DNA of 60,244 nt from NCBI GenBank assembly GCA_003647765.1, contig QMNM01000001.1:1-60244 (forward strand), read 5' to 3'. Below, in pieces: positions 1 through 60,244 of this stretch. The first letter of the stretch is position 1. Every line of letters begins with the position of its first letter. The notes beneath the pieces were generated by a model. The model did no database searches. It was not told the DNA's origin and worked only from the letters and a program-made list of their open reading frames with translations. This DNA is from Candidatus Cloacimonadota bacterium (lineage in GTDB: Bacteria; Cloacimonadota; Cloacimonadia; JGIOTU-2; B8-G9). Both the position numbers and the translations under genes were made by a program.

Positions 1-123
1 AGAGAAAAGAGAAGAAGATATATTGAAGTGGCTGGATGATAACACTGAATCCTTACCTGAAGATTCTTTTCATCCTGAACTTATACCTGATTATACTCCG
101 ATTCCTTCCAAGCCTGTTTTGAA
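1..123. repeat. Terminal direct repeat copy A, identical to 60122-60244. Indicates a circular or circularly permuted genome of 60,121 bp.
   Basis: The window start agagaaaagagaagaagatatattgaagtgg...aagcctgttttgaa recurs exactly at the window end. Confidence 0.95.
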
Positions 124-3100
124 ACGGAAGCCCGAAAGGGTCTCTATGTTTTCTTTTGGTGTAGATTCAGATTTATCTCTGAAGAAGAAGATAGAATCAG
201 CGTATTCTATTTTTCAGAATGATTGGAGAGAGTTTTTACAGGCAAGGAAGGAGAGGCTTTCTCTGGCATGGAAGGCTGTATCAAAAGGCATAATTTCTCC
301 TGAAGAAGTAGATAAATTTGATTTTGTAGTTTCTGCTCTTGAGTGGGTAAAAGGAACTGATTTTAAGCATTTAATTAAGCGTGGGTTAGTAAATGAAAAG
401 GAAGCAAGGGTAAGGATTAAATTTTTTGAGACTTATGCCCAGAGAGTATGGAATGCTATTGGTGAAAGGCTTACAGGTTTAGATAATGTTTTAAAGAGCT
501 GGGCAAGGGGTGAGTTAAATTCAATAGATCCCAAAGATACTATTCATATAAGAGGATTGATTGAAGATGCTTTATCTGATTATCCTGCTTATACTCTCCA
601 GCAGTTAATAGAATTGCGTCGTGCTCATCGTATAGAGATTATTAGAAGGCTCTCAAAGAGTTATGCTTATACTTTACTGGACAGGTTTATTGAGAAAGGC
701 AGGAAGATAGATAAGAGTAGTTTAGATGCGATTTATAAGCAGTTAAGGAAATATGTAATCGGGTCTTATGTTTTAGCGATAGAAGGGAATGAGCGGAGTC
801 CTTTATTGAAAGAGTTAATGGGAGCTGGGTTATCAAAGCAACAAGCTATTCAACTTGTAAAGAATTCTTCTGCCAGAGCGACCCTGTTTTATCTTGATTA
901 TTTCTGGAGCAATTATGTTAAGGAATCAATGGGATTTTACAGGCTGGATACTCCTTTAGGCTGGGCTGGTGGTTTATTTAAATGGACCTGGGATTTAATC
1001 AAACTTGATTTCAATGCTCTACCTGCCAAATCAAAGAGATTACTGGTTGGCGAACTAGAAGATAACATTCTTCCTACAATAGATAAATTTATAGAGTTTG
1101 GTGATAAGTTATTAAGCATAAGGAAGACTCTGGAGCTTCCAGAGTATAAGCATATTTCAGCTATTAGGGCTTTAATGAAGAAGTTGCGGGATACTATTGA
1201 TGCTTATTTAAATAAGTCTTTGGATGTGAAGAAAGCCCAGAGAGAACTGGAGCATATCTGGAATGTTATTGTAGATAAATATGCAGTAGGGAATCACAGG
1301 GTTTTAGCCAAACTGGTTGCTAGAGAATTATTCCTTACTAATGCAAGGATTGGTTTACATAGGAAAGATGTTTCTGATTTTGAGAGATATAAATATCAAT
1401 CTGATGGTTTCCTGCGATTCTTGAAGCGGTATAATGATGCTTATAGTGCTTTATTGTATCTGGCAAAGAATGGAGAAGGTGCGACAAAGATTGTTGCAGA
1501 GCATTTATTGAAACTTCCTTATACCAGTATAGTTCTTCCACATGTTCCTATTAGGTTTGTAGAGAATTTATTTGGTGGAAAGACGACTGGTTTATATCGT
1601 CCCTATGAAGGTAACATGTTTGGAGAGATTATTGTTGATCCGAATGCTCTGCCCGATATTTTTGAAGCTACCATTTTTCATGAAATTTTACATGCATTGA
1701 CATTACATACACTTCATTTTTCCAAGAAAAGAGAAGAATATAGGGAAAGAATTAATAGTATTATAAACGATATTCGTCCATTGATTTCGGAGGAAGAATA
1801 CAAGTTAGGAAAATGGATAGTAGAAAATGAAGCAAGGCTTACCAAGCATGAATTGAAGGAAAAGATTGATAAGACTATTGCGAAAGATAGTCTTTTACAG
1901 GAGCATGTAGCTAGGTATGGAAAGCAGTCGTGGTTATCTTTTCTTGTTTCTCTACATGATCCTGATGAGTTTATTGTAACAGCTATAACTGAACCTGCGG
2001 GCAAGTTGTTCCTTATTGAGCATGATAAAAAATCCATCTGGAGAAAGATTCTTGATTTCATCAGGAACTTGTTAGGATTTCCAGTTGAAAAGAGAGAATT
2101 GTTTATCAGGACAGTTGACACTTTGATGGATATTGTTGCGGAATCTCATCCTATTTATGTTGCAGCTTTCAGGAAATACTTTAAGTTGCCTATAAATAAA
2201 ACTTTATATCAATTAGCTATGGCTTCTGCTGAAGAACTTTCTGATTTGGCTAACAGGATACAGAAAGAACATGAGTTAACAAGGCAAAGAATTAATCTTT
2301 CTGATTTTGAAGATAAGGTAAAAGATTTTGTTGAGCATATAAGGACATACAAAGCTCCTCCGCAAATGAAGGATATTAATATAATCAGGGAAAAATTTGG
2401 ATTACCTTTCTGGACAGCACTTCAAAATGAGTCTTTTAAGCCTTTATTTGATCATGTTACAAAGACAATGGAGAATAAGAATTTCACTTTACATGCTATT
2501 CTTCAGAAAGGAGAGACATATTTTAATGGGCTTGATGAAAAAAGAAGAAAGTATGTGGATTCTGCTATAAAGATAAGCGATGCTTTACAGGTCAGATTTA
2601 CGGAGGAGCATTTAAGGAATTTTCCAAGAGTTATTTCTAACATGAAGATTGCGTTCAATTTGATGTATCAGCTTTTGAAGCAGGAAGAAAGGTCTGGGTT
2701 AAATAGAAAGCAGAGAGCAGAGAGAAGGCAGGTTGTCCTGCAACGATTAAATGAAGCCACAAAGTTAGATTTACCAAAAGAATACTCTCAACCGCAGTAT
2801 GTTATCAGGTTTAAGCATTTCTTTGATTATGCAAGATTGCCAATAGACAAGTTATCCGATGAAGAAATAAAAGCATATAATAATTATGCAGAAGTAACTC
2901 AAGAGACTTTGAATCATCTAGGCGATACTTTCTTATCTCTGGTTTGTAAGCTGGTAATAAAGAACTATTTACAGAAGTTAAAGATAGATGTTCCTTCTAC
3001 TGTTCAGACTCAATGGATAAATACTTTAGTGGAGTTTGGTAAGGATATAGAGCAGGCTAGAGAGCGGGTTGCCCGAATGAATCCAGAAGCTAGAGAGATT

Positions 3101-5302
3101 TGGGAATCATTACTCAATGATTTGGAGGCTCATTCTCTCTATCAGAAATACAAAGAGATTCAGGATTTGATTAAAGATACCAAATTCTATTCTCCTCGTA
3201 TGAGAGATCCTGATGCTTCTGATATGATTGTAGTTGTAGAGAGAGAAAAATTCTTGGAAGAATACAGGAAGGCTTATAGAGAGACAGGTAATAGAGCGAA
3301 GGCTTTACAGCAAGCGTATTATGCGACTGCGAATGCCAATGGTGTCTATTTAAGAGAGCATGTTAGAAGAATAGATCCTGATTATAAGAGAAAGTTAGAG
3401 CATATTCAGTCTGTATTTAAAGATAGCAGGTTTCTTGTGCAGAGATTACCTAATTACAAGTTAGCGGAATCTGTCTGGGGCAATGTAAGTGAAGGAGATC
3501 TAGGAGCATTTCTCTCTGCTGTTGCAGAAAAAGTAAGGAAAGAAAATGTTGATTCTGAAACTTTAATGGGATTCTTGGAGAAGGTTGCAGATACAATTCA
3601 GACTGAATTGTTAGCTAAAAGTAGAGCAAAACAGAGATTTATTAAGAGAAATCCTTATCTGATTTTAGGATATACTCTGGATAATGTAAGGGAAGAATTA
3701 TTCAATTATGTAAACAATGCTTCTAATTATGCTGCCCGAATGGTAGCATTGGTAGAAGGATTACCTTTATTGAATCAAATAGATCCTTATCAGCAGAGAA
3801 GGTTGAGAGATTATGCTCATAAATGGTTCTTTGATCAATTGAAGCCACAGAGCCAGTTTGATCGTATTGTAGGAAAAGTAAAATCCTTGATGTTTATCTG
3901 GTATTTGGGCGGAGTGATTCGTCCTGCTTTAATTCAATTTACACAAATGTTTATTTCTACCATTCCAATGACAAGTATTGTTTATGATATTCCAATAACC
4001 AGAAGTATCTCTGTTTTTATGAAGGCTTATAGAGATGTATTGGATCACAGGAATTTAGATGAAAATAAGTATTTGACTGCGGACGAAAAAGAGTTCCTGC
4101 GGATTACATATACAAGTGGAATAACCACAGCTCAATTTATCAATCAGATGAGAGATGAAGTTGCGGGCAGAGGAAAAGTTCTCTCTACTCTGGCTACTTG
4201 GTTGACTACTCCTTTTGCATATATGGAAGAAAATAACAGGCTGGCAACAGCTTTAGGAATTTACAGGATTTTGAAAGAGAAAGGAATAGTCAGGCATGCA
4301 AAGGATAAGAAAGCTATGGAAGAAGCTACAACAATTGTTAATATGTCTCATTATTTAATGGGTAAACTCAATCTTCCTATTATAGCAACAGGTGGAGATG
4401 TGGCTTCTGGTTTAATGCGTCTAGCTCTTACTTTCCGTTCATTTACATTAAACTTATTAGAATCTTATATTTACATGCTCCGACATCTGCCTAAAGGACA
4501 GAGAGTTTGGGGTCTCAATAAAGAAGGATTGAGATTTGTTGGATATAGTTTTGCTGCCTTTACCTTATTCGGTGGAATTCTAGCAATACCTTTCCTTGAT
4601 GACTGGCTACAATTATTAGAAAGATTGACAGGAATTCCTATAAGAAAAAGGTTAGTTACTGTATTTGGAAATCCAGATTCTCCGCTATCTGTTGCTTTAG
4701 AAAGAGGATTACCTGCTGCCCTGATAGGTATGGATTTAAGCGGTTCATTGAAGATAGAATTCCCAAGACGACCAGAAGATATTTTGAATACTATTTTTGG
4801 AGTATATGGTGGACTTTCAAAGAGTTTTGCGGACGCAATGGTTGCTTTAGATGGTTATGATAGTTTGAACATCTTGTATAGGATTATGCCACAAGTGTTT
4901 GCCAATCCGATCAGGGCTTATGAAGCATATAAAGGAATAAAGAATCAATACAATAAAGTAATTCTGGACGAAGAAGGGCGACCATTGAGACTTACAGAAG
5001 GAGAAGCTGTCCTACTTGCACTTGGAATTAGACCAACAAGGTTGGGCAGAACTTATCTCTATAAGAGCACAAGTAGGAACATAGAAAAATACTTTGATAG
5101 TAAGCGGAAGGCTATATACAATGCTTATAGAAGTGCAAAGACTGCATCAGAGAGATGGAAAGTTTACAGGATGATTTATGAATATAACATGGAAGCTGCC
5201 AAATATGTATCTATTCCAAAGATTACTTTACAATCCCTGAAGGCAGCTTCCAAACCTGTTGAGAGCAAGCTAACACAAGAATTGAAACTTAAGGGTTATT
5301 AA
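1..5302 (+). CDS. Giant virion/ejection, polyvalent-like protein, C-terminal part. It is the continuation of 57084..60244 across the circular junction.
   Basis: The frame is open from base 2. Positions 23 and 60144 are equivalent and in frame with the ATG at 57084. An HExxH motif (HEILH) lies at 1679-1693. Several hydrophobic TM-like segments occur near the C-terminus (SLMFIWYLGGVIRPALIQF, FVGYSFAAFTLFGGILAIPFL). It is the last gene of the structural operon. Confidence 0.8.
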   Translation, partial: EKREEDILKWLDDNTESLPEDSFHPELIPDYTPIPSKPVLKRKPERVSMFSFGVDSDLSLKKKIESAYSIFQNDWREFLQARKERLSLAWKAVSKGIISPEEVDKFDFVVSALEWVKGTDFKHLIKRGLVNEKEARVRIKFFETYAQRVWNAIGERLTGLDNVLKSWARGELNSIDPKDTIHIRGLIEDALSDYPAYTLQQLIELRRAHRIEIIRRLSKSYAYTLLDRFIEKGRKIDKSSLDAIYKQLRKYVIGSYVLAIEGNERSPLLKELMGAGLSKQQAIQLVKNSSARATLFYLDYFWSNYVKESMGFYRLDTPLGWAGGLFKWTWDLIKLDFNALPAKSKRLLVGELEDNILPTIDKFIEFGDKLLSIRKTLELPEYKHISAIRALMKKLRDTIDAYLNKSLDVKKAQRELEHIWNVIVDKYAVGNHRVLAKLVARELFLTNARIGLHRKDVSDFERYKYQSDGFLRFLKRYNDAYSALLYLAKNGEGATKIVAEHLLKLPYTSIVLPHVPIRFVENLFGGKTTGLYRPYEGNMFGEIIVDPNALPDIFEATIFHEILHALTLHTLHFSKKREEYRERINSIINDIRPLISEEEYKLGKWIVENEARLTKHELKEKIDKTIAKDSLLQEHVARYGKQSWLSFLVSLHDPDEFIVTAITEPAGKLFLIEHDKKSIWRKILDFIRNLLGFPVEKRELFIRTVDTLMDIVAESHPIYVAAFRKYFKLPINKTLYQLAMASAEELSDLANRIQKEHELTRQRINLSDFEDKVKDFVEHIRTYKAPPQMKDINIIREKFGLPFWTALQNESFKPLFDHVTKTMENKNFTLHAILQKGETYFNGLDEKRRKYVDSAIKISDALQVRFTEEHLRNFPRVISNMKIAFNLMYQLLKQEERSGLNRKQRAERRQVVLQRLNEATKLDLPKEYSQPQYVIRFKHFFDYARLPIDKLSDEEIKAYNNYAEVTQETLNHLGDTFLSLVCKLVIKNYLQKLKIDVPSTVQTQWINTLVEFGKDIEQARERVARMNPEAREIWESLLNDLEAHSLYQKYKEIQDLIKDTKFYSPRMRDPDASDMIVVVEREKFLEEYRKAYRETGNRAKALQQAYYATANANGVYLREHVRRIDPDYKRKLEHIQSVFKDSRFLVQRLPNYKLAESVWGNVSEGDLGAFLSAVAEKVRKENVDSETLMGFLEKVADTIQTELLAKSRAKQRFIKRNPYLILGYTLDNVREELFNYVNNASNYAARMVALVEGLPLLNQIDPYQQRRLRDYAHKWFFDQLKPQSQFDRIVGKVKSLMFIWYLGGVIRPALIQFTQMFISTIPMTSIVYDIPITRSISVFMKAYRDVLDHRNLDENKYLTADEKEFLRITYTSGITTAQFINQMRDEVAGRGKVLSTLATWLTTPFAYMEENNRLATALGIYRILKEKGIVRHAKDKKAMEEATTIVNMSHYLMGKLNLPIIATGGDVASGLMRLALTFRSFTLNLLESYIYMLRHLPKGQRVWGLNKEGLRFVGYSFAAFTLFGGILAIPFLDDWLQLLERLTGIPIRKRLVTVFGNPDSPLSVALERGLPAALIGMDLSGSLKIEFPRRPEDILNTIFGVYGGLSKSFADAMVALDGYDSLNILYRIMPQVFANPIRAYEAYKGIKNQYNKVILDEEGRPLRLTEGEAVLLALGIRPTRLGRTYLYKSTSRNIEKYFDSKRKAIYNAYRSAKTASERWKVYRMIYEYNMEAAKYVSIPKITLQSLKAASKPVESKLTQELKLKGY

Positions 5303-7673
5303 AACTCAAATCCTTTCCTATTTTTCCTTCAGTTTCAATGGGGTATCCAACATTGATGCCCCAATGCTTTTTTATGTATTCTTTCGTTCTATTTTCAAAA
5401 CAATCTTTCAATATCTCTTGTGCTTTTTCGGCAACATCTTCTCTTGCTCTATAATAGTAGGCATCGTGGATAAAAAGGTTAGTCAGGATTACTTTATCTT
5501 TCAGGTCGGGGCGGGATTTTATTTCCTTCCAGAACAACATTATTCCAAGACATGCTAGTTCGCTACTGAAATTCTGAACAGGAGTATTGATTGCCTGCCT
5601 TTCCGCTTTACTTCTCAACCTGAAATCATCAGAATCAATATGCGGTAAATGTCTTTTCCTTCCTAAAACACATCTTATATACTTATGCTTTCTTGCAAAC
5701 TTAACCATTCGTTCATGATATAAAGGAAGTTTCCAGTATCCATTGGGTTTAGAGAAGAAAAGTTCTCTATATCGCTCTGCTTCTTCTAAAGTGAAGACGA
5801 CATCATAGTTTTTAAAAGCATAATCAACCAGAGAATTTGCCTGCATTCCGTATATTAATCCAAAATTTATCGGCTTTGAGAGCTGTCTCAAGTCTTTAGT
5901 AATTTCTTCTAAAGGCTTTCCTGAAATAAGGGAGGCTGTTCTTTTATGTAAATCTATCCCTTCATCTAAAGATTTCAGGATATTTTCATCTTGAGCCAGC
6001 CAGCCTATTATTCTCATTTCACTTTGACTTAAATCCTGACTGCATATAACCCAGCCATCTTCGGCTACAATATTTCCCAAAACCTTTTCAGAGAATTCTC
6101 CGTGTGCTGGAAATTGTTGCATAGGAGGGTCTAATATTACAGTTCTCCCTGTTACTGTTCCTGTTAGGAATATCTTTGGGTAAATATATCCATCTGGATA
6201 CAGATTTTTTCTTATTGCTTTGATGTAAGTGTTCAGAATTTTGCTTATCTGTTTATATCTTAATAGCTTTGCGACCCATTCGTTATCTTTGAATCGTTTT
6301 AGATGATATTTATCGGTAGAAGGTTGTTTTGTTTTTTCTGTAAATTCAACAGGTTTCAATCCCAGCCCTTTCTTTGTAAACATAAACTTTGCAATGATGT
6401 CGGGAGTTAATGAGTCTGCATCTTTCTTTATTGATTTAGGGATAGCATCCATTAATTCCTTTTCCAATTTTTTCATCTCTGTATAGAGAGAATCTTCGTT
6501 TTCATCTAGTTTATTCAGGTCTATTTTCCATCCGTTCGCAGATACATCGCTGAAAACGTTTTCAACGGGAAGGCAGTAATATTTGTAATATCTGGTTAAT
6601 TTTTTATCTTCCATAATCTTTTTCTTCAGGACATTGAAGACTTCAATAGTAACTTTAGCATCAAGACTGACATAATTCAGGAGCTTGCTTTCTTCTAATT
6701 TTTCCATCTCTGTCCTATTTCTATTCACTACATCTTTTATATTGTAGTAGGAAGTGAAGACATTTGCCAGATGCTCTAGGGAATAGGAAGCTAGGTTTTC
6801 ATCTACAACATGAGCCATTGTCATTACATCAAATATTTGTCCTTTAACTTCGCAACCAAGATTCTTTTTACATACAAGTTCATCAAAAGGACGATTATGC
6901 ACGACTTTCTTTATATTCTCATCTTCCAGTATTTTCTTTATACTTTCTTTGAGTTTATTGTCTTTGGTAAGGGATGCGTAGGGCAACCCTTCTTTTCCTG
7001 CCAGACCTATACATAAGACTTTTCCTTTCATGTGTGCGACCCGCAGGTTCTCTGTTTCAAGGTCAAAAGCTATTATTTTTCCTTTGGGCAAATTGATTGT
7101 TGTATATTCATGTTTAAAATCTTCCTTCTGTTTATAGAGAGCGACAGCATGTTTGATGTCGGCATAAAACAATTTCTCTACTTCATTCATCTTTTCTAAT
7201 GGAATATACGGATACCCACGCTTGCATTGTCTTAAAACATAGGCAGGATGAAATGTTGGAATAACAACAGCATCTCCGAAGGGAAATTGTAGTCCTCTGA
7301 AACTGGAAATTCTTTTCTTATTGAACATCTGATAGAGAGCCAGTTCTCCTAATAAGACAATCACTTTGGGTTTGAGGATTCCCAGAGCTTTTACAACATG
7401 TTCTTTACAGCACTTTGATGCTTTTTCTAAATCGGTTTTTTTATCCTGCCCTAATTTCTGGCACATTGTAGCATTCAAGATAGATATATCTACTCTAGAC
7501 ATCCCAAAGAGTGAAAACGTTTTCATTAAGAGTCGCCCACTTTCTCCTACAAAAGGACGACCTTCTCTTACTTCTTCCCACCCAGGACCTTCTCCTATAA
7601 CCACAAATTCAGGATTATTTTTCTCATATTTAACTTTCTTTCTTCCTTTAAAAGGACAATCTTTACAGCTCAT
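5289..7673 (-). CDS. polA: Family-A DNA polymerase fused to an N-terminal family-4 uracil-DNA-glycosylase-like domain and a 3'-5' exonuclease domain.
   Basis: UDG4 motifs GEGPG..PFVGESGRLL and HPAYVLR, plus N-terminal Cys residues. Exo I motif FDLETENL. Pol motif A DLSQSEMRI and motif B RQLSKPINFGLIYGM. Motif C-like IHDA. Confidence 0.9.
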   Translation of the reverse strand: MSCKDCPFKGRKKVKYEKNNPEFVVIGEGPGWEEVREGRPFVGESGRLLMKTFSLFGMSRVDISILNATMCQKLGQDKKTDLEKASKCCKEHVVKALGILKPKVIVLLGELALYQMFNKKRISSFRGLQFPFGDAVVIPTFHPAYVLRQCKRGYPYIPLEKMNEVEKLFYADIKHAVALYKQKEDFKHEYTTINLPKGKIIAFDLETENLRVAHMKGKVLCIGLAGKEGLPYASLTKDNKLKESIKKILEDENIKKVVHNRPFDELVCKKNLGCEVKGQIFDVMTMAHVVDENLASYSLEHLANVFTSYYNIKDVVNRNRTEMEKLEESKLLNYVSLDAKVTIEVFNVLKKKIMEDKKLTRYYKYYCLPVENVFSDVSANGWKIDLNKLDENEDSLYTEMKKLEKELMDAIPKSIKKDADSLTPDIIAKFMFTKKGLGLKPVEFTEKTKQPSTDKYHLKRFKDNEWVAKLLRYKQISKILNTYIKAIRKNLYPDGYIYPKIFLTGTVTGRTVILDPPMQQFPAHGEFSEKVLGNIVAEDGWVICSQDLSQSEMRIIGWLAQDENILKSLDEGIDLHKRTASLISGKPLEEITKDLRQLSKPINFGLIYGMQANSLVDYAFKNYDVVFTLEEAERYRELFFSKPNGYWKLPLYHERMVKFARKHKYIRCVLGRKRHLPHIDSDDFRLRSKAERQAINTPVQNFSSELACLGIMLFWKEIKSRPDLKDKVILTNLFIHDAYYYRAREDVAEKAQEILKDCFENRTKEYIKKHWGINVGYPIETEGKIGKDLSFNNP
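6551..6564. repeat. TGAAAACGTTTTCA palindrome, perfect copy, inside polA.
   Basis: Read as E-N-V-F. Confidence 0.95.
7512..7525. repeat. Palindrome, perfect copy, inside the polA UDG domain.
   Basis: Read as K-T-F-S. Confidence 0.95.
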
Positions 7674-26565: not shown

Positions 26566-26639
26566 GCCCAAATAACCCCACCCCTATCGGACACAGGGGG
26601 GTTTATATAGGGGACGGGGCGGGGCTTTTTGTGAACCTC

Positions 26640-26935
26640 TCACAAAAATCCCGAATTTCAGAAAATCCCAAATTCTAGAAAATCCTAAACTTTTAAAAAT
26701 TCTAAATTTTAACTTTCTCACAAAAATCTTAAATTTCAGATGAACTTCTCACAAAAATCCTAAATTTCAGAAAATCTTAAATTTCACAAAAATCCTAAAT
26801 TTTGTAAAAATCTTAAATCTTGAATTTTGTAAAAATCCTGAATTTTAGAAAACCTTAAAATTGAAAAATCCCGAATTTCAGAAAATCTTGAATTTTGTAA
26901 AATTCTGAATTTAGGAAATCCTGAATTCTTCTATA
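26640..26935. repeat. About 15 contiguous degenerate 17-18-bp units with consensus AAAATCYYRAATTTYAG.
   Basis: Examples are aaaatcccgaatttcag, aaaatcccaaattctag, aaaatcctaaatttcag, aaaatcttaaatttcac and aaaatcctgaattttag. CTCACAAAAAT is interspersed three times. Confidence 0.85.
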
Positions 26936-56120: not shown

Positions 56121-57074
56121 ATGGCTACTTTTGATTGGAGAGAACAATTTAGGAGAGAGAATAGGCAGTTTTTGAAAGAGATAGAGCCATATATGGTTGG
56201 GATGATGGGTGGGCTTGGTGGTAAGTTTGGGAGAGGATTAGGGAAGGTTGCGAAGTGGGCATTACCTACTTTTGGTTTATACTGGTTTATGTCTGGGAAG
56301 AAAGAGAAACCACAACAACCTGTATCTGCGATCCCGCAGACTCCTGTTATTACACAGGAGCAATATGAAGCTGTAAAGAATATGGTAAAGGGAATGGTAT
56401 CTGGGGCAGGGACTCCTGATTATTTTACACAGGCTTTAAATCTCCCACAGAGTTTCCTACAACAATATCAGGATATTGTTTCGGCATTAGGGAAGACTCA
56501 AAAAAGGCAGAGTCGGGCATTAAAGAATTTAGCCAGTGCTATTCCTTTAGTATCAACAAGTGGGCTGGCTTACTGGAATCCCAATATTGTTTCTGCGTTA
56601 GAAGATAGGATTACGACTTTAGCCAGTATGGCTATTCCCAGAGATACAAGTTGGGATTCTCTGTTAAGAGCGAAGTATGCAAGGAGAGCATTACAGGCTT
56701 TATTGCCAGCGTATTCTAGATTAGTTTCTGCTACAAGGCAGACGATTACTCCTTCTGCTGTTGCTCCTAATTTATTAGTTCAAGCTATGCAATTAGAGAC
56801 TGCCCCACAGACAGCTTTATTACAGGCATTACCTTCTGTTTATGAATGGCAACAGAGAGCATTAATTGAAGCTGCAAAAGCTCAAGCAAAGGCAGAGCAG
56901 GAAAAGAGAGCATTGATTGATAAAGCGATACAGCAACAACAGGAGATACCAATCAAGGTAGCACAGGCATTATCAAGGTTGACTTTATCTCCAGAGCAAA
57001 CACAGGCATTATCCAATTTCTTATTTAGTCTTTTGAATTTACAGAGAAGTGCTTTACCAATTCCTACTATGTAG
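56121..57074 (+). CDS. Internal virion protein candidate with a TM-like segment.
   Basis: VAKWALPTFGLYWFMSG. The C-terminus is Q/A-rich. Confidence 0.45.
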   Translation: MATFDWREQFRRENRQFLKEIEPYMVGMMGGLGGKFGRGLGKVAKWALPTFGLYWFMSGKKEKPQQPVSAIPQTPVITQEQYEAVKNMVKGMVSGAGTPDYFTQALNLPQSFLQQYQDIVSALGKTQKRQSRALKNLASAIPLVSTSGLAYWNPNIVSALEDRITTLASMAIPRDTSWDSLLRAKYARRALQALLPAYSRLVSATRQTITPSAVAPNLLVQAMQLETAPQTALLQALPSVYEWQQRALIEAAKAQAKAEQEKRALIDKAIQQQQEIPIKVAQALSRLTLSPEQTQALSNFLFSLLNLQRSALPIPTM

Positions 57075-57083
57075 GAGTGAGTT

Positions 57084-60000
57084 ATGGCAGAAAAGAAACA
57101 GGTTTTACCAACAATAGATGATCAATATGTAGAATTTCTTACTCGCAGGATGTTAGGGCTTCCTTTAACAGGACAGCTCAATTTACCTAAAGAGAAAGAT
57201 TTATTAAAGGTTCAGAGTCAAGGGCAGACAGCTTTACCTGTTTCAGTTCCGACGATGCAAGTTCCGCAAGCTCCTTCTGTTCCTATTCAGACACAGCAAG
57301 AAGAAGGCTGGCTTCCTGTTCTTGGTAAAGCGGTAGCCAGAGGATTAGCTACTCCTGTAATAGGTGCTACTGGAGCAATATCTGCTCTGGGAGAGCGGTT
57401 AGGTTTTGATACAAGTAAAATTCAGAAGTGGGCGAATGAGTTGTCTAACTTATTAGCTCCCAAAGTGGGTAAGAATAAAGCGAAGGCTTATGCTTATGGG
57501 ATTATAGATTCAACGATAAATAGTATTACTCAATTTCTCCTTTCAAGGTTTACCAGAGTTCCGCTTCTTCCTATGTTTGGTATTACTTCTGGTGGTGAAA
57601 AGTTCTTACAGGCAAGAGCGGAAGGGTATCCTTATGAGAAGGCAATAAAGACAGCTGTTCCTACTGGTTTATCTGAAGCTCTGACAGAGATGATTCCCTT
57701 CCACAGTCTTACAAAGACAATGAAGAAATCTATCATTAAGGGAGTTGTTGAGTTATTTGGTGGTGAGTTAGTGGGAGAGAATTTAAATACTATTGTTGAA
57801 AACATATCTGATCAGCTAGCTTTAGGTAAGCATAAGACTTGGAGTGAATTTTTACAGGATTTAGTGGACACAACTATTACCACATTAGGGCAGACTGCTC
57901 TTACTGCTGGATTGGGAGCGGGGGTTCACAGATTAGCACGAAGGGTAGAAAAGAAAGCAAAGGCAATAGAGCAACCTGCTCCTGAAGTTCCTCCACAACC
58001 ACAACCAGCTCCAGCAACATCTCCTTATGAATTACTAACTGCTTTACCACAGAAGCCAGAGCAGGTATCTGCGGGAGTAGCTTCTATATATGATAGGATT
58101 GCGGATAGGTTAGAAGGAAAACAGAAAGAAAGGGCAAGGAAACATGCTTCTGTATTGAGAGATATAAGTCAGAAGAAAGTTCCTGCTGTTGAAGATATAA
58201 AGGAAGTTAGGGAAGATATAAGTAAATCTGAAAGGTTGCCTAAATCTGTAAAGAATATTTTAGTAAAGCATTTAGATTCTCTGATTAAGCAGGCTGAAGA
58301 AAAGAAAAAGAAAGAGCTTATTCCTAAAGAAACCAAGCCAGAAGTTAAAGAAGAAAAGCCGAAACCAAAGGAAGAAAAGCCAAAGGAAGAAGTCAAAACA
58401 GAAGAAAAAATTGAAAACGTTTTCACTCAACCAGAAGAAGAAAAGTTGACTGATGAAGAAATAAAGATTTTGAAGGATAGAGGATTTACTGACAATCAGA
58501 TTAAGAAACTCCTTCCTGAAGAAGGGAGGAGGTTAATAAAAGAAAATCTTGCTCCTGAACAGGTAAGCGTTCTCCCTAATGGAAAGGTAAAAGTTATAGA
58601 GAAGAAGAAGGAAGTTTCTGTTCCTGAAAAAGAAGAAGCGAAGGAAAAAGAACCCTGGCAATTGACGAAGAAAGAATGGGAAAGTTTATTGGAGAAAGAT
58701 TTAACTCCAGAAGAAGCAAACAAATTCTTTCCTAAAAAGCGAATTGATAAATACAGAATTTATCACAAGAAGTATGGGGAGAAAGTTGTTCCTACATATA
58801 AGCGTATAGATAAAAAGACGAAGGGCACTTTTGAGATAAACAAGTATATTTTACAATCTGAACCTGATTTGATTGATGTAATTAGGAGATGGCATGTAGA
58901 GCAGGCTTTAAAGGAAGGTAAACCCGTTCCTGAAGAAGTTTTGAAGGAATTTCCTGATTTAGTAAAAGAAGAAAAGAAACCAGAAAAAACCAAACCTTTA
59001 TTTGAAGGAGTAGATAATTATCGTCTTACTTCTAAAGGACATGAGTTAAGGGTTGTAAGGGCAGGAGAAGCACTTTCTCATCCTGATAGGAAAGGGACTT
59101 GGTTTGTTGTTGAAAAATATAAAGGGCAGATTCCTCCGTATGCAACTTCTCCTATAACAAAAGGTGGAGTTGCTGGTGTTGGTGGAAAAGAGATATGGAG
59201 GACTTCTGTTACTTTGCGTAATCCTTATTTGTTTGAGATTCCTGAAGATATAAAGAGTGAAGGAGAGATTCCTTTAGCTCTCTATAAGGAAGTTACAGGG
59301 AAAGAGCCTCCAAAGAGAGGATTAAAAGGAAAGAATGCAGAAAAAAGGTTTGCGAAATTAGAAAGTGAGATAGCGGATACTTTAAGAAAGAAAGGTTATG
59401 ATGGAGTAATTCTTTATCAGAGAGTTGGGGAGAATACTTATCCCGACCAAGTATTTGTTTTTAGGGATACAGAGGCTCATAAAGAGTTGGAGAAAAGTTT
59501 AGAGAAGAAATCAGAAGCGAAAGAGAAAGAGACCAAGAAAGAACTTATCCCTGCTGAAAAGAAGGAACAGAAGAAGGAAACCAAGCAAGAGCTTATTCCT
59601 ACTGAAGAAAAGAAGGAAAAGAAAGAACAGAAGAAGAAGGAACTTATCCCTTCTGCTGAAGAAGTAAAGAAAGCGAAACCTGTTTCTAAAATTTCTTTTG
59701 AATATGGAAAGACCAAGAGTCAGATGAAAGTAAGGCATGAGGTTTATGGAGAGTTGCCTTTCTTTATAAAGAGAGGGTTTAAAGGCTGGAAATTATATGG
59801 AGAGAGAGCTGTAAAGTTAAAGAATGGCAGGGTTGTTATTGTTCGTCAATTAAGGGCACAGGGATTAAAATCTGTTGAAGATGTTAGGAAGAAGATTCAG
59901 TCTTTTATTGATGAAGGTGAGCCTGTAATTATAGCTGATAAGGATGTATTGAAAGAGCGTCCGCTGGAGGATATAAGCGGGAAGGTAATCAGACCTGAAG

Positions 60001-60244
60001 ATATAGATTTGAAGGAATTAAAGAAGGTTGCTGTTTTTAAGGAGATAGGGAAGAAGGCAAAGCAGGAATCTGCGGAGATTAGGGAAAGGGTAGATGAAGT
60101 TGAGGAGATTCTTTCTGAAGTAGAGAAAAGAGAAGAAGATATATTGAAGTGGCTGGATGATAACACTGAATCCTTACCTGAAGATTCTTTTCATCCTGAA
60201 CTTATACCTGATTATACTCCGATTCCTTCCAAGCCTGTTTTGAA
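57084..60244 (+). CDS. Giant virion/ejection, polyvalent-like protein, N-terminal part. It runs off the window end and continues at base 1.
   Basis: The ATG at 57084 follows TAGGAG. I translated the whole stretch by hand and found no stop. It is absent from the ORF track because it has no stop inside the window. Confidence 0.8.
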   Translation, partial: MAEKKQVLPTIDDQYVEFLTRRMLGLPLTGQLNLPKEKDLLKVQSQGQTALPVSVPTMQVPQAPSVPIQTQQEEGWLPVLGKAVARGLATPVIGATGAISALGERLGFDTSKIQKWANELSNLLAPKVGKNKAKAYAYGIIDSTINSITQFLLSRFTRVPLLPMFGITSGGEKFLQARAEGYPYEKAIKTAVPTGLSEALTEMIPFHSLTKTMKKSIIKGVVELFGGELVGENLNTIVENISDQLALGKHKTWSEFLQDLVDTTITTLGQTALTAGLGAGVHRLARRVEKKAKAIEQPAPEVPPQPQPAPATSPYELLTALPQKPEQVSAGVASIYDRIADRLEGKQKERARKHASVLRDISQKKVPAVEDIKEVREDISKSERLPKSVKNILVKHLDSLIKQAEEKKKKELIPKETKPEVKEEKPKPKEEKPKEEVKTEEKIENVFTQPEEEKLTDEEIKILKDRGFTDNQIKKLLPEEGRRLIKENLAPEQVSVLPNGKVKVIEKKKEVSVPEKEEAKEKEPWQLTKKEWESLLEKDLTPEEANKFFPKKRIDKYRIYHKKYGEKVVPTYKRIDKKTKGTFEINKYILQSEPDLIDVIRRWHVEQALKEGKPVPEEVLKEFPDLVKEEKKPEKTKPLFEGVDNYRLTSKGHELRVVRAGEALSHPDRKGTWFVVEKYKGQIPPYATSPITKGGVAGVGGKEIWRTSVTLRNPYLFEIPEDIKSEGEIPLALYKEVTGKEPPKRGLKGKNAEKRFAKLESEIADTLRKKGYDGVILYQRVGENTYPDQVFVFRDTEAHKELEKSLEKKSEAKEKETKKELIPAEKKEQKKETKQELIPTEEKKEKKEQKKKELIPSAEEVKKAKPVSKISFEYGKTKSQMKVRHEVYGELPFFIKRGFKGWKLYGERAVKLKNGRVVIVRQLRAQGLKSVEDVRKKIQSFIDEGEPVIIADKDVLKERPLEDISGKVIRPEDIDLKELKKVAVFKEIGKKAKQESAEIRERVDEVEEILSEVEKREEDILKWLDDNTESLPEDSFHPELIPDYTPIPSKPVL
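58412..58425. repeat. Palindrome, perfect copy, inside the giant ORF.
   Basis: Read as E-N-V-F. Confidence 0.95.
60122..60244. repeat. Terminal direct repeat copy B, identical to 1-123.
   Basis: Same 123 bases as the window start, and in the same reading frame as the giant ORF. Confidence 0.95.

What the first reader, a model, noticed from the sequence alone, without database searches (positions are those of the whole stretch)
57084..60244. A 2,779-codon ORF spans the assembly junction, so the track call 23..5302 with a TTG start is a truncation artefact
An ATG at 57084, with TAGGAG 6 nt upstream, opens a frame that I translated by hand to the window end without meeting a stop.

Bases 60122-60244 equal bases 1-123. 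Position 60144 is equivalent to position 23 and is in frame with 57084. The ORF therefore continues to the stop at 5302. That is 3,038 + 5,302 nt, or 2,779 aa.

The N-terminal 1,012 codons are missing from the supplied ORF track because they lack an in-window stop.

A gene crossing the repeat argues that the 123-bp overlap is a circular-assembly or circular-permutation signature. It argues against physical ends lying at this position.
Basis: seen in the sequence. Interest (0 to 1): 0.6.

Follow-up and report, generated by a model that had tools for sequence, protein, structure and literature searches.

The report
Giant phage gene split by assembly junction
The two ends of this 60-kb phage contig repeat the same 123 bases only because the assembler cut open a circular path. 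The "1,759-codon" gene at the left end is therefore the back two-thirds of one 2,779-codon giant virion-protein gene, a correct but ordinary annotation fix.

Summary
Bases 1-123 equal 60122-60244 exactly. The ATG at 57084 has TAGGAG 6 nt upstream and an in-frame TGA at 57078. Its frame stays open to the window end and, after one repeat copy is removed, runs to the stop at 5300-5302, giving 2,779 aa.

- 123 is the assembler's k. In the same bin, 16 different contig pairs overlap end to end by exactly 123 bp.
- A related 61,208-bp contig also has a 123-bp overlap, at a non-homologous site in the same gene. Three independent assemblies cross that join at 100% identity with the 123-mer present once.
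- Homologues of 2,556-2,962 aa cover both halves, always between the same upstream gene and a convergent PolA gene.

The protein is a new member of the known giant PLxRFG-domain "polyvalent" virion proteins of ~60-kb phages. It has a conserved N-domain, a hypervariable Lys/Glu-rich middle carrying a mobile cargo domain, a conserved HExxH module and a C-terminal NF032893 domain. It is probably packaged and ejected, but this is inferred.

Interest is low: a real artefact, correctly diagnosed.

The parts
57072..57077 (+). Shine-Dalgarno-like TAGGAG, 6 nt upstream of the start codon
   Evidence: sequence read directly. Other late genes of the phage carry GGAGG at a similar spacing (families D1 and D5).
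57084..60121 (+). 5' part of the giant gene: codons 1-1012 plus 2 nt. It holds the conserved N-terminal domain (residues 1-280, nt 57084-57923) and most of the hypervariable Lys/Glu/Pro-rich middle region.
   Evidence: The frame is open from the ATG at 57084, with an in-frame TGA at 57078. Residues 11-270 are 54% identical to residues 3-261 of P0002 and similar to P0003 and P0004. Conservation profile.
59001..59498 (+). Mobile cargo domain (residues ~640-805), absent from the three closest full-length homologues
   Evidence: An exhaustive HMMER search found 29 representative clusters. They are either stand-alone proteins of 150-260 aa or modules inside proteins of 886-2,083 aa. The AF2 model has pLDDT 84.9. 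Foldseek found no significant PDB match. Only 1 of 17 family members gave a faint ART-PolyVal hit, E 0.0086.
60122..60244 (+). Redundant second copy of bases 1-123. This is the assembler's k-mer overlap and should be trimmed. It codes residues ~1014-1054, inside the hypervariable region.
   Evidence: Searches show exact identity. One search shows 123 is the dominant contig-to-contig overlap in the same assembly. Searches show the same behaviour in a relative.
1..5302 (+). 3' part of the giant gene (residues 1013/1014-2779, stop at 5300-5302). The TTG at 23-25 is an internal Leu codon, not a start.
   Evidence: One BLASTP HSP (residues 888-2779 against P0002 1104-2962) crosses the junction.
1370..2152 (+). 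Conserved HExxH module (residues 1470-1730). HEILH is at residues 1573-1577 (nt 1679-1693), followed about 95 residues later by a conserved P-[DEH]-E-F helix. It is a putative zincin-like peptidase of the polyvalent-protein type.
   Evidence: The motifs are invariant in 4 of 4 homologues. The AF2 model has pLDDT 89.3, with three strands followed by a long HExxH helix. The PDB search found nothing. BFVD gave weak hits (E 2e-3 to 5e-2, prob up to 1.0) to polyvalent proteins, an N4-like virion RNAP piece, internal core proteins and putative peptidases.
3623..5236 (+). C-terminal PLxRFG ('tail-700') domain, with one hydrophobic helix at residues 2524-2545
   Evidence: NCBIfam NF032893 scores 117.8-121.5 bits against a cut-off of 100. 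tblastn matches the C-termini of giant 'DarB-like' or 'structural' proteins of ~60-kb phages. Hydropathy.
5289..7673 (-). Neighbouring convergent gene, a UDG-exo-PolA DNA polymerase. It overlaps the giant gene's 3' end by 14 nt. This is context that fixes the gene's 3' boundary.
   Evidence: The same arrangement is seen in relatives.

Best explanation
The window is a complete, circularly assembled ~60,121-bp genome of an uncultured tailed phage. Its gene content looks podovirus-like. The assembler was a de Bruijn graph program with final k = 123, most likely MEGAHIT in the old JGI workflow. It wrote a closed loop as a linear contig, cut at an arbitrary point, and repeated the last k bases.

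The cut fell inside the last and largest gene of the late (structural) operon. Gene callers therefore reported a 3'-open N-terminal piece (57084-60242) and a 5'-truncated piece with a spurious TTG start (23-5302). The real gene runs 57084 -> 60121 | 1 -> 5302 and encodes 2,779 aa.

The product belongs to the giant PLxRFG-domain 'polyvalent' virion proteins.
- Shown here: the architecture. It comprises a conserved N-domain, a hypervariable Lys/Glu-rich linker with swappable modules, a conserved HExxH...E module, and a C-terminal NF032893 domain with one hydrophobic helix.
- Inferred from the family and the gene's position: it is packaged in the capsid and ejected into the host with the DNA. The HExxH module may process it, and the variable middle may deliver cargo domains.

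Confidence is 0.93 for the gene-and-artefact claim. For 'packaged and ejected polyvalent protein' I put it at about 0.65.
For: - Exact 123-bp overlap, frame continuity and a 2,779-aa ORF.
- 123 is this assembly's k: 32 oriented (16 distinct) contig-end overlaps of exactly 123 bp in the same 360-contig bin. The next commonest length has 6.
- The JGI MEGAHIT k-list 23,43,63,83,103,123 is documented (PMC6478937 and PMC6646334).
- A related contig (G002, 61,208 bp, classed 'DTR' by IMG/VR) has a 123-bp overlap at residues ~240-280 of its giant gene, a different site.
- That same phage in a k141 MEGAHIT assembly is 61,226 bp. 61,226 - 141 = 61,208 - 123 = 61,085, and there the gene is intact in mid-contig.
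- ENA, Logan and a second IMG/VR contig align at 100% identity with no gaps across G002's join, with the 123-mer present once.
- Homologues of 2,556-2,962 aa contain both halves. Gene order is conserved around the gene in L001, L003, L023 and G003.
- Protein family: NF032893 above its cut-off. The C-terminus resembles those of Pavtok gp27 (5,007 aa) and 8P_023 (5,145 aa), each the last gene of its structural module.
- Upstream genes are portal-like, scaffold, major capsid and virion structural proteins.
Against: - For the window's own contig the join therefore rests on the assembler's graph, the k evidence and homology, not on an independent assembly. The exact 2,779-aa product is not on record elsewhere.
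- The junction lies in the least conserved part of the protein. Homology alone cannot exclude a small missing or extra piece exactly there.
- Function: no Pfam domain reaches threshold anywhere in the protein. The literal PLxRFG motif is degenerate here (YSPRMRD). Neither AF2 model has a significant PDB neighbour.
- Packaging and ejection are untested.
Confidence: 0.93

Rival explanations
1. The 123 bp are a genuine direct terminal repeat. The virion DNA would really begin at base 1 and end at base 60244, so the giant gene is split in the particle and only becomes whole after circularisation or concatemer formation in the cell.
For: IMG/VR-style classification calls such contigs 'DTR'. Short DTRs are common in podophages; for example, phi80-18 has 325 bp (PMC7316996).
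Against: - The repeat length equals the assembly k, as shown by 16 unrelated contig pairs.
- A relative has the same 123-bp length at a non-homologous site. There, independent assemblies show the 123-mer present once in continuous sequence.
- A terminus inside the coding region of an essential structural gene would be unprecedented, and its position is not conserved.
Confidence: 0.01
2. False circularisation. An internal repeat of at least 123 bp made the assembler close the loop prematurely. Sequence would then be missing at the join, and the 2,779-aa ORF would be a chimera of two genes.
For: The junction lies in a low-complexity, repeat-containing, hypervariable stretch (family D3). Such regions can mislead de Bruijn assemblers.
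Against: - Relatives have the same two-part architecture in one protein of similar length.
- Their unique genome lengths are almost the same: 61,085 bp for G002, and a 60,947-bp contig, against 60,121 bp here.
- G003 is collinear from window 42.6 kb through the junction to 38.5 kb.
- There is no other repeat of 100 bp or more in the contig, and the frame is preserved.
Confidence: 0.03
3. The ORF is continuous, but it is expressed as, or matured into, separate products, so the C-terminal piece is a biologically meaningful unit. This could happen by internal initiation or by proteolysis near the start of the conserved C-terminal 1,700 residues.
For: A conserved (P/S)-(E/S)-L-I-P motif lies just before the conserved C-terminal block in all four homologues. 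The protein also carries a conserved HExxH module. P1 DdrB is processed before packaging, as cited in PMC5512222.
Against: The TTG at 23 has no reason to act as a start. It lies in a stretch that relatives do not conserve, and no SD was examined or seen there. Proteolysis is a post-translational event and does not rescue the truncated gene call. Nothing was tested.
Confidence: 0.15

Closest known systems
Terminal k-mer overlap of circular contigs from de Bruijn assemblers (MEGAHIT or SPAdes), reported as 'DTR' by IMG/VR and CheckV-type pipelines
   Same: The ends are an exact duplicate. The overlap length equals the final k, here 123 as in the JGI MEGAHIT k-list. The cut point is arbitrary and differs between relatives and between assemblies.
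   Different: Nothing differs. This is the textbook case. It cannot say whether the packaged DNA is permuted or has ends elsewhere.
Giant PLxRFG-domain (NCBIfam NF032893 'tail-700') virion proteins of ~60-kb phages, e.g. Erwinia phage Pavtok gp27 (5,007 aa, 'DarB-like antirestriction; methylase, helicase, lytic transglycosylase') and Pseudomonas phage 8P_023 (5,145 aa, 'structural protein')
   Same: The C-terminal ~550 residues are homologous: 22-25% identity by tblastn with E down to 5e-14, and an HMM score above the cut-off. It is the largest gene in the genome and the last gene of the structural operon.
   Different: - It is about half the size.
- No methylase, helicase or transglycosylase domain was detectable.
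- The literal PLxRFG motif is replaced by Y-[ST]-P-R-[MY]-R-D.
- It is followed by a convergent PolA gene, not a lysis cassette.
- Only three close full-length relatives are known, all from metagenomes.
Polyvalent proteins of phages and conjugative elements (Iyer, Burroughs, Anand, de Souza, Aravind 2017, PMC5512222), including the C-terminal HExxH (MPTase) region of the coliphage N4 virion RNA polymerase gp50
   Same: It is a very large multidomain late-gene product with a conserved HExxH plus downstream Glu helix. Variable modules are shared with other giant phage proteins and with stand-alone genes. Weak structural neighbours include an N4-like vRNAP fragment and 'large polyvalent protein associated domain' proteins.
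   Different: No Pfam MPTase-PolyVal, LPD or ART-PolyVal model reaches threshold; the best are LPD14 at E 0.12 and ART-PolyVal at E 0.0086 in one family member. It has no RNAP or other recognisable enzyme. The peptidase assignment rests on motif and topology only.
Phage P1 DarB (head-packaged antirestriction protein)
   Same: It shares only the database label ('DarB-like') carried by its nearest annotated relatives, and the idea of a capsid-packaged, injected giant protein.
   Different: The methyltransferase and helicase modules that define DarB were not found here. It should not be annotated as DarB or as an antirestriction protein.

Membership tests
Assembler-made terminal overlap of a circular contig | Overlap length equals the final k of the assembly | tested here: met
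   16 distinct contig pairs in the same bin overlap by exactly 123 bp, and the next most frequent length is far rarer. A k-list ending in 123 is documented for JGI MEGAHIT assemblies.
Assembler-made terminal overlap of a circular contig | Cut position is arbitrary and not conserved among related genomes or assemblies | tested here: met
   Relative G002 is cut at residues ~240-280 of the gene, while the window is cut at ~1014-1054. Other assemblies of that phage are cut elsewhere and carry the gene intact.
Assembler-made terminal overlap of a circular contig | Sequence is continuous across the join, with the repeat present once, in independent data | tested here: inconclusive
   This is met for the relative: three assemblies at 100% identity with no gaps.
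Genuine direct terminal repeat (physical ends) | Read starts and ends pile up at the repeat borders, with about twofold depth over the repeat | not testable with these tools
Genuine direct terminal repeat (physical ends) | Repeat at a homologous, normally non-coding, position in related genomes | tested here: not met
   The repeat lies inside an ORF. The relative's repeat lies about 770 codons away in the same ORF.
PLxRFG domain-containing protein (NCBIfam NF032893, 'tail-700') | HMM score above the curated cut-off (100 bits) | tested here: met
   117.8 bits for the 1,766-aa part and 121.5 bits for the last 666 aa, covering profile positions 72-658 of 681.
PLxRFG domain-containing protein (NCBIfam NF032893, 'tail-700') | Literal P-L-x-R-F-G motif at the start of the domain | tested here: not met
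   Pavtok and 8P have PLSRFG. The window and its three relatives have no P[LIVM]x[RK][FYW]G motif. The likely equivalent is Y-[ST]-P-R-[MY]-R-D, followed by a beta-strand-like MIVVV. This placement is by eye, because MAFFT put it slightly differently.
Polyvalent proteins sensu Iyer et al. 2017 | Several unrelated effector or enzymatic domains in one phage or plasmid polypeptide, with domains recurring in other architectures | tested here: inconclusive
   The cargo domain at residues 640-805 recurs both alone and inside other giant proteins. An HExxH module is present. No domain has a significant match to a named polyvalent-protein Pfam family.
Zincin-like metallopeptidase (MPTase) of polyvalent proteins | Three-stranded sheet, then an HExxH helix, then a second helix supplying Glu | tested here: inconclusive
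   HExxH and a downstream P-x-E-F are invariant in 4 of 4 homologues. The AF2 topology fits: strands 60-63, 74-78 and 85-89, then helix 95-117 carrying HExxH. Foldseek found nothing in the PDB and only weak BFVD hits to peptidase or polyvalent entries.
P1 DarB-type antirestriction protein | DNA methyltransferase and helicase domains | tested here: not met
   There was no Pfam, PHROG or NCBIfam hit for either domain, whether the protein was scanned whole or in nine overlapping pieces.

The most novel reading that the evidence does not exclude
The giant protein would be a self-processing delivery polyprotein. Its Lys/Glu-rich middle is a cassette holder in which short conserved (K/P)ELIP motifs mark the cleavage sites. 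There are five such motifs in the window protein against 0.09 expected, they are also enriched in two relatives, and they always lie between modules. The resident HExxH peptidase, or the prohead protease, would cut at these sites after packaging or ejection. Cutting would release swappable effectors, among them the residue 640-805 domain, a rare and so far undescribed family with only faint ART-like hints.
Probability: 0.15. Interest if true: 0.55.

Novelty: new member of a known kind. Interest (0 to 1): 0.15.

Why it matters
In practice, the contig should be trimmed by 123 bp and rotated before annotation. Otherwise the largest gene of the phage is reported as two fragments, one with a false TTG start. 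That truncated 1,766-aa product is already what a large public protein collection holds.

The case is also a clean reminder that 'DTR' labels on metagenomic viral contigs can be pure k-mer artefacts. A simple in-assembly test exposes them: count contig-to-contig end overlaps and see whether the terminal repeat has that same length.

Biologically, it adds a compact and unusually enzyme-poor member to the giant PLxRFG virion proteins. This family is widespread but has not been studied experimentally.

Tried and rejected
- Look-up of the exact 2,779-aa product in other assemblies found nothing on record.
- Records behind L001 and L003 could not be reached for their contig ends.
- Pfam, PHROGs and NCBIfam on the whole protein and on nine overlapping pieces gave only NF032893 as significant. 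The rest (PM2_P3, AXH, LPD14 and others) are noise-level.
- phmmer of both halves against PDB sequences gave no hit. A profile of the cargo family against the PDB gave one chance-level hit.
- Foldseek of both AF2 models against the PDB gave nothing at E <= 0.001. The top hit for the cargo domain was a chain of the cyanophage A4 pre-ejectosome (E 0.02, TM 0.31). Hits to ADP-ribosyltransferase folds at E ~1 are suggestive labels but not evidence.
- A word-based homologue search with the cargo domain alone found nothing.
- Host link: only chance-length (20-23 nt) exact matches exist between the phage contig and the other 359 contigs of the bin, so there is no spacer evidence.
- Inferring the packaging mode from TerL: the nearest TerLs (43-45% identity) are from Vibrio VA-RY-3 and Cronobacter Ss1, then BcepC6B and KL4. 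I found no termini data for these. I first thought of GAP227-like phages and their phi80-18-type DTRs, but those phages are not among the TerL hits, so I dropped that line.
- First paper searches for the k-list failed on syntax or term choice.
Full report
**1. The observation**

- Bases 1-123 and 60122-60244 are identical, and no other terminal overlap exists. It is also the only direct repeat of 100 bp or more in the window.
- The ATG at 57084 is preceded by TAGGAG (57072-57077) and a 6-nt spacer. An in-frame TGA at 57078 rules out any start further upstream.
- The frame stays open for 1,053 codons to the window end. Position 60144 (equivalent to position 23) is in frame with 57084.
- After one repeat copy is removed, the ORF ends at 5300-5302 after 2,779 codons.
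- The mechanical ORF list reproduces the artefactual calls: 23..5302 with TTG (1,759 aa), 2..5302 open at the 5' end (1,766 aa), and 57084..60242 open at the 3' end.

**2. Is it one gene?**

A word-indexed search with the 1,766-aa part found the truncated product itself, plus three full-length relatives of 2,962, 2,590 and 2,556 aa at 42-46% identity.

- Their N-termini (M..LAE/DILTRRMLGLP..) match the window's residues 11-270 at 47-54% identity.
- Their C-terminal ~1,750 residues match the window's 888/1037-2779.
- For P0002 a single HSP crosses the junction residues.
- On every contig that carries a relative, the gene is uninterrupted. It lies between a homologue of the 317-aa gene at 56121-57074 and a convergent UDG-exo-PolA gene.
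- A 137-kb IMG/VR contig is collinear with the window from 42.6 kb, through 60121|1, to 38.5 kb.

**3. What is the 123-bp repeat?**

The window is the whole of contig C1 in a 360-contig bin. Four lines of evidence point to an assembler artefact.

- Within that bin, 32 oriented (16 distinct) end-to-end overlaps between different contigs are exactly 123 bp. The next most frequent length occurs 6 times. So 123 is the final k of this assembly, and neighbours in the de Bruijn graph share k bases.
- The JGI MEGAHIT workflow used '--k-list 23,43,63,83,103,123' (PMC6478937 and PMC6646334).
- The related IMG/VR contig G002 (61,208 bp, labelled 'direct terminal repeats') also has an overlap of exactly 123 bp. 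It is again inside the giant gene, but at residues ~240-280, a non-homologous site.
- The same phage occurs in an ENA MEGAHIT assembly as contig k141_1408555 of 61,226 bp, with the gene intact at 16.6-24.3 kb. The arithmetic matches: 61,226 - 141 = 61,208 - 123 = 61,085.
- The ENA contig, a Logan contig and a second IMG/VR contig align to G002's ends, joined with the 123-mer kept once, at 100% identity and without gaps, straight across the join.

A repeat whose length tracks the assembler's k and whose position wanders is not a biological DTR.

**4. What this does and does not show**

The genome forms a closed path in the assembly graph, about 60,121 bp long. This is expected for any of three situations:
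- a circular replicon;
- a circularly permuted headful packager;
- a phage whose true DTR or cos region was collapsed.

It therefore says nothing positive about where the physical ends lie. It only removes any reason to put them at base 1 and base 60244.

No independent assembly of this exact phage is on record. False circularisation through an internal repeat is unlikely, because relatives have almost the same unique genome length and the same gene architecture.

**5. The gene product**

*Context.* The + strand operon from about 32.3 kb contains TerL, a portal-like protein, a scaffold-like protein, the major capsid protein, several 'virion structural' proteins and five large proteins with no family match. 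The giant gene is its last member.

*Conservation.* Among the four homologues the protein divides as follows:
- a conserved N-domain, residues 1-280;
- a hypervariable, indel-rich, Lys/Glu/Pro-rich middle, residues 281 to about 1100, which contains the assembly cut;
- a conserved block from about residue 1100 to the end.

*C-terminal domain.* NCBIfam NF032893 (PLxRFG domain, 'tail-700') matches the last ~550 residues above its curated cut-off. tblastn finds the same region at the C-termini of giant proteins in ~60-kb phages:
- Pavtok gp27, 5,007 aa, 'DarB-like; methylase, helicase, lytic transglycosylase';
- 8P_023, 5,145 aa, 'structural protein';
- also PEp14, Parlo, POI1126 and PBC5.

In Pavtok and 8P it is the last structural gene. 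The literal PLSRFG motif of those proteins is degenerate here, as YSPRMRD.

*HExxH module.* An HExxH motif (residues 1573-1577) and a P-x-E-F helix about 95 residues downstream are invariant in the four homologues.
- The AF2 model is confident (pLDDT 89) and shows three strands followed by the HExxH helix. This is the zincin layout that Iyer et al. describe for the 'MPTase' domain of polyvalent proteins, including the N4 virion RNAP (PMC5512222).
- Foldseek gave no PDB match.
- BFVD gave only weak hits, to polyvalent proteins, an N4-like vRNAP piece, internal core proteins and putative peptidases.
- I therefore call this module putative.

*Cargo domain.* Residues ~640-805 are absent from the three close relatives. 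They define a rare family of 29 representative clusters among 1.84 billion proteins. It occurs as stand-alone proteins of 150-260 aa and inside other giant phage proteins.
- Its AF2 model has pLDDT 85.
- It has no significant structural neighbour.
- The ART-like hints are too weak to use.
- No methylase, helicase, transglycosylase or polymerase domain was found, so 'DarB-like antirestriction' would be a wrong label.

**6. Mechanism**

- Shown: the gene structure, the artefact and the domain layout.
- Inferred, at about 0.65: the protein is packaged in the head and ejected with the DNA, like other polyvalent or PLxRFG giants. The conserved N- and C-terminal parts would serve packaging and ejection. 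The single hydrophobic helix at residues 2524-2545 may contact a membrane. The variable middle would carry host-directed cargo.
- Speculative: the repeated ELIP motifs between modules are processing sites. There are five, at residues 411, 820, 836, 853 and 1039, against 0.09 expected. They are also enriched in P0003 and P0004, and one always lies just before the conserved C-terminal block.

**7. Verdict**

The matter is an ordinary consequence of linearising a circular assembly, and the gene is a new member of a known class. I re-derived it independently. Interest is low.

Noticed in passing
window 58314-58325, 59541-59552, 59589-59600, 59640-59651 and 77-88 (= 60198-60209); protein residues 411, 820, 836, 853, 1039: The short motif (K/P)-E-L-I-P occurs five times in the hypervariable middle of the giant protein, against 0.09 expected from composition. 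It also occurs 4 and 3 times in relatives P0003 and P0004, always between modules. One copy always lies just before the conserved C-terminal block, where P0002 has SLIP. These are candidate processing or docking sites. One copy lies inside the 123-bp overlap.
   Followed up: partly
window 59001-59498: The cargo domain at residues ~640-805 has invariant R..G, RGGTW, NPY, EG, AEK..E and GYDG motifs. It defines a rare, unannotated family of 29 representative clusters, found both as small stand-alone proteins and inside other giant phage proteins. Its fold has no significant PDB neighbour.
   Followed up: partly
G003 (IMGVR_UViG_3300017593_000402), loci L015-L021: This 137-kb 'linear' viral contig looks like two different phage genomes joined end to end. 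Positions ~81.3-137 kb are collinear with this window. Positions 1-81 kb carry a different PolA (26% identity) and TerL (32-34% identity). The join corresponds to window ~38.5-42.6 kb, the tail-fibre-like genes, so it is probably a chimeric assembly through a shared or recombining receptor-binding region.
   Followed up: no
window 26632-26919: This non-coding stretch is packed with iteron-like repeats (AAAATCCYRAATTT units). It lies next to the three long palindromes at 25.9-26.2 kb noted by another finding. It is a candidate origin or packaging region, and one place to look for real genome ends.
   Followed up: no
window 58406-58445 (also 23098, 40649, 44845, 46406): The palindrome TGAAAACGTTTTCA sits about 8-10 nt upstream of the SD of several late genes, which looks like a promoter, operator or processing signal. 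One copy lies inside the giant gene (residues ~442-446) with no SD or start after it.
   Followed up: no
window 5289-5302: The giant gene and the convergent PolA gene overlap tail to tail by 14 nt. The same 14-nt overlap is seen in L001 and a 4-nt overlap in L003, so there is no room for a terminator between the two convergent operons.
   Followed up: no
whole window (contig C1 of the bin): The phage contig is the largest contig of a 1.97-Mb, 360-contig bin. It has a higher G+C content than the bin (36.9% against a median of 31.9%). It shares no exact match longer than 23 nt with the other contigs, so its placement in the bin is not evidence for the host.
   Followed up: partly
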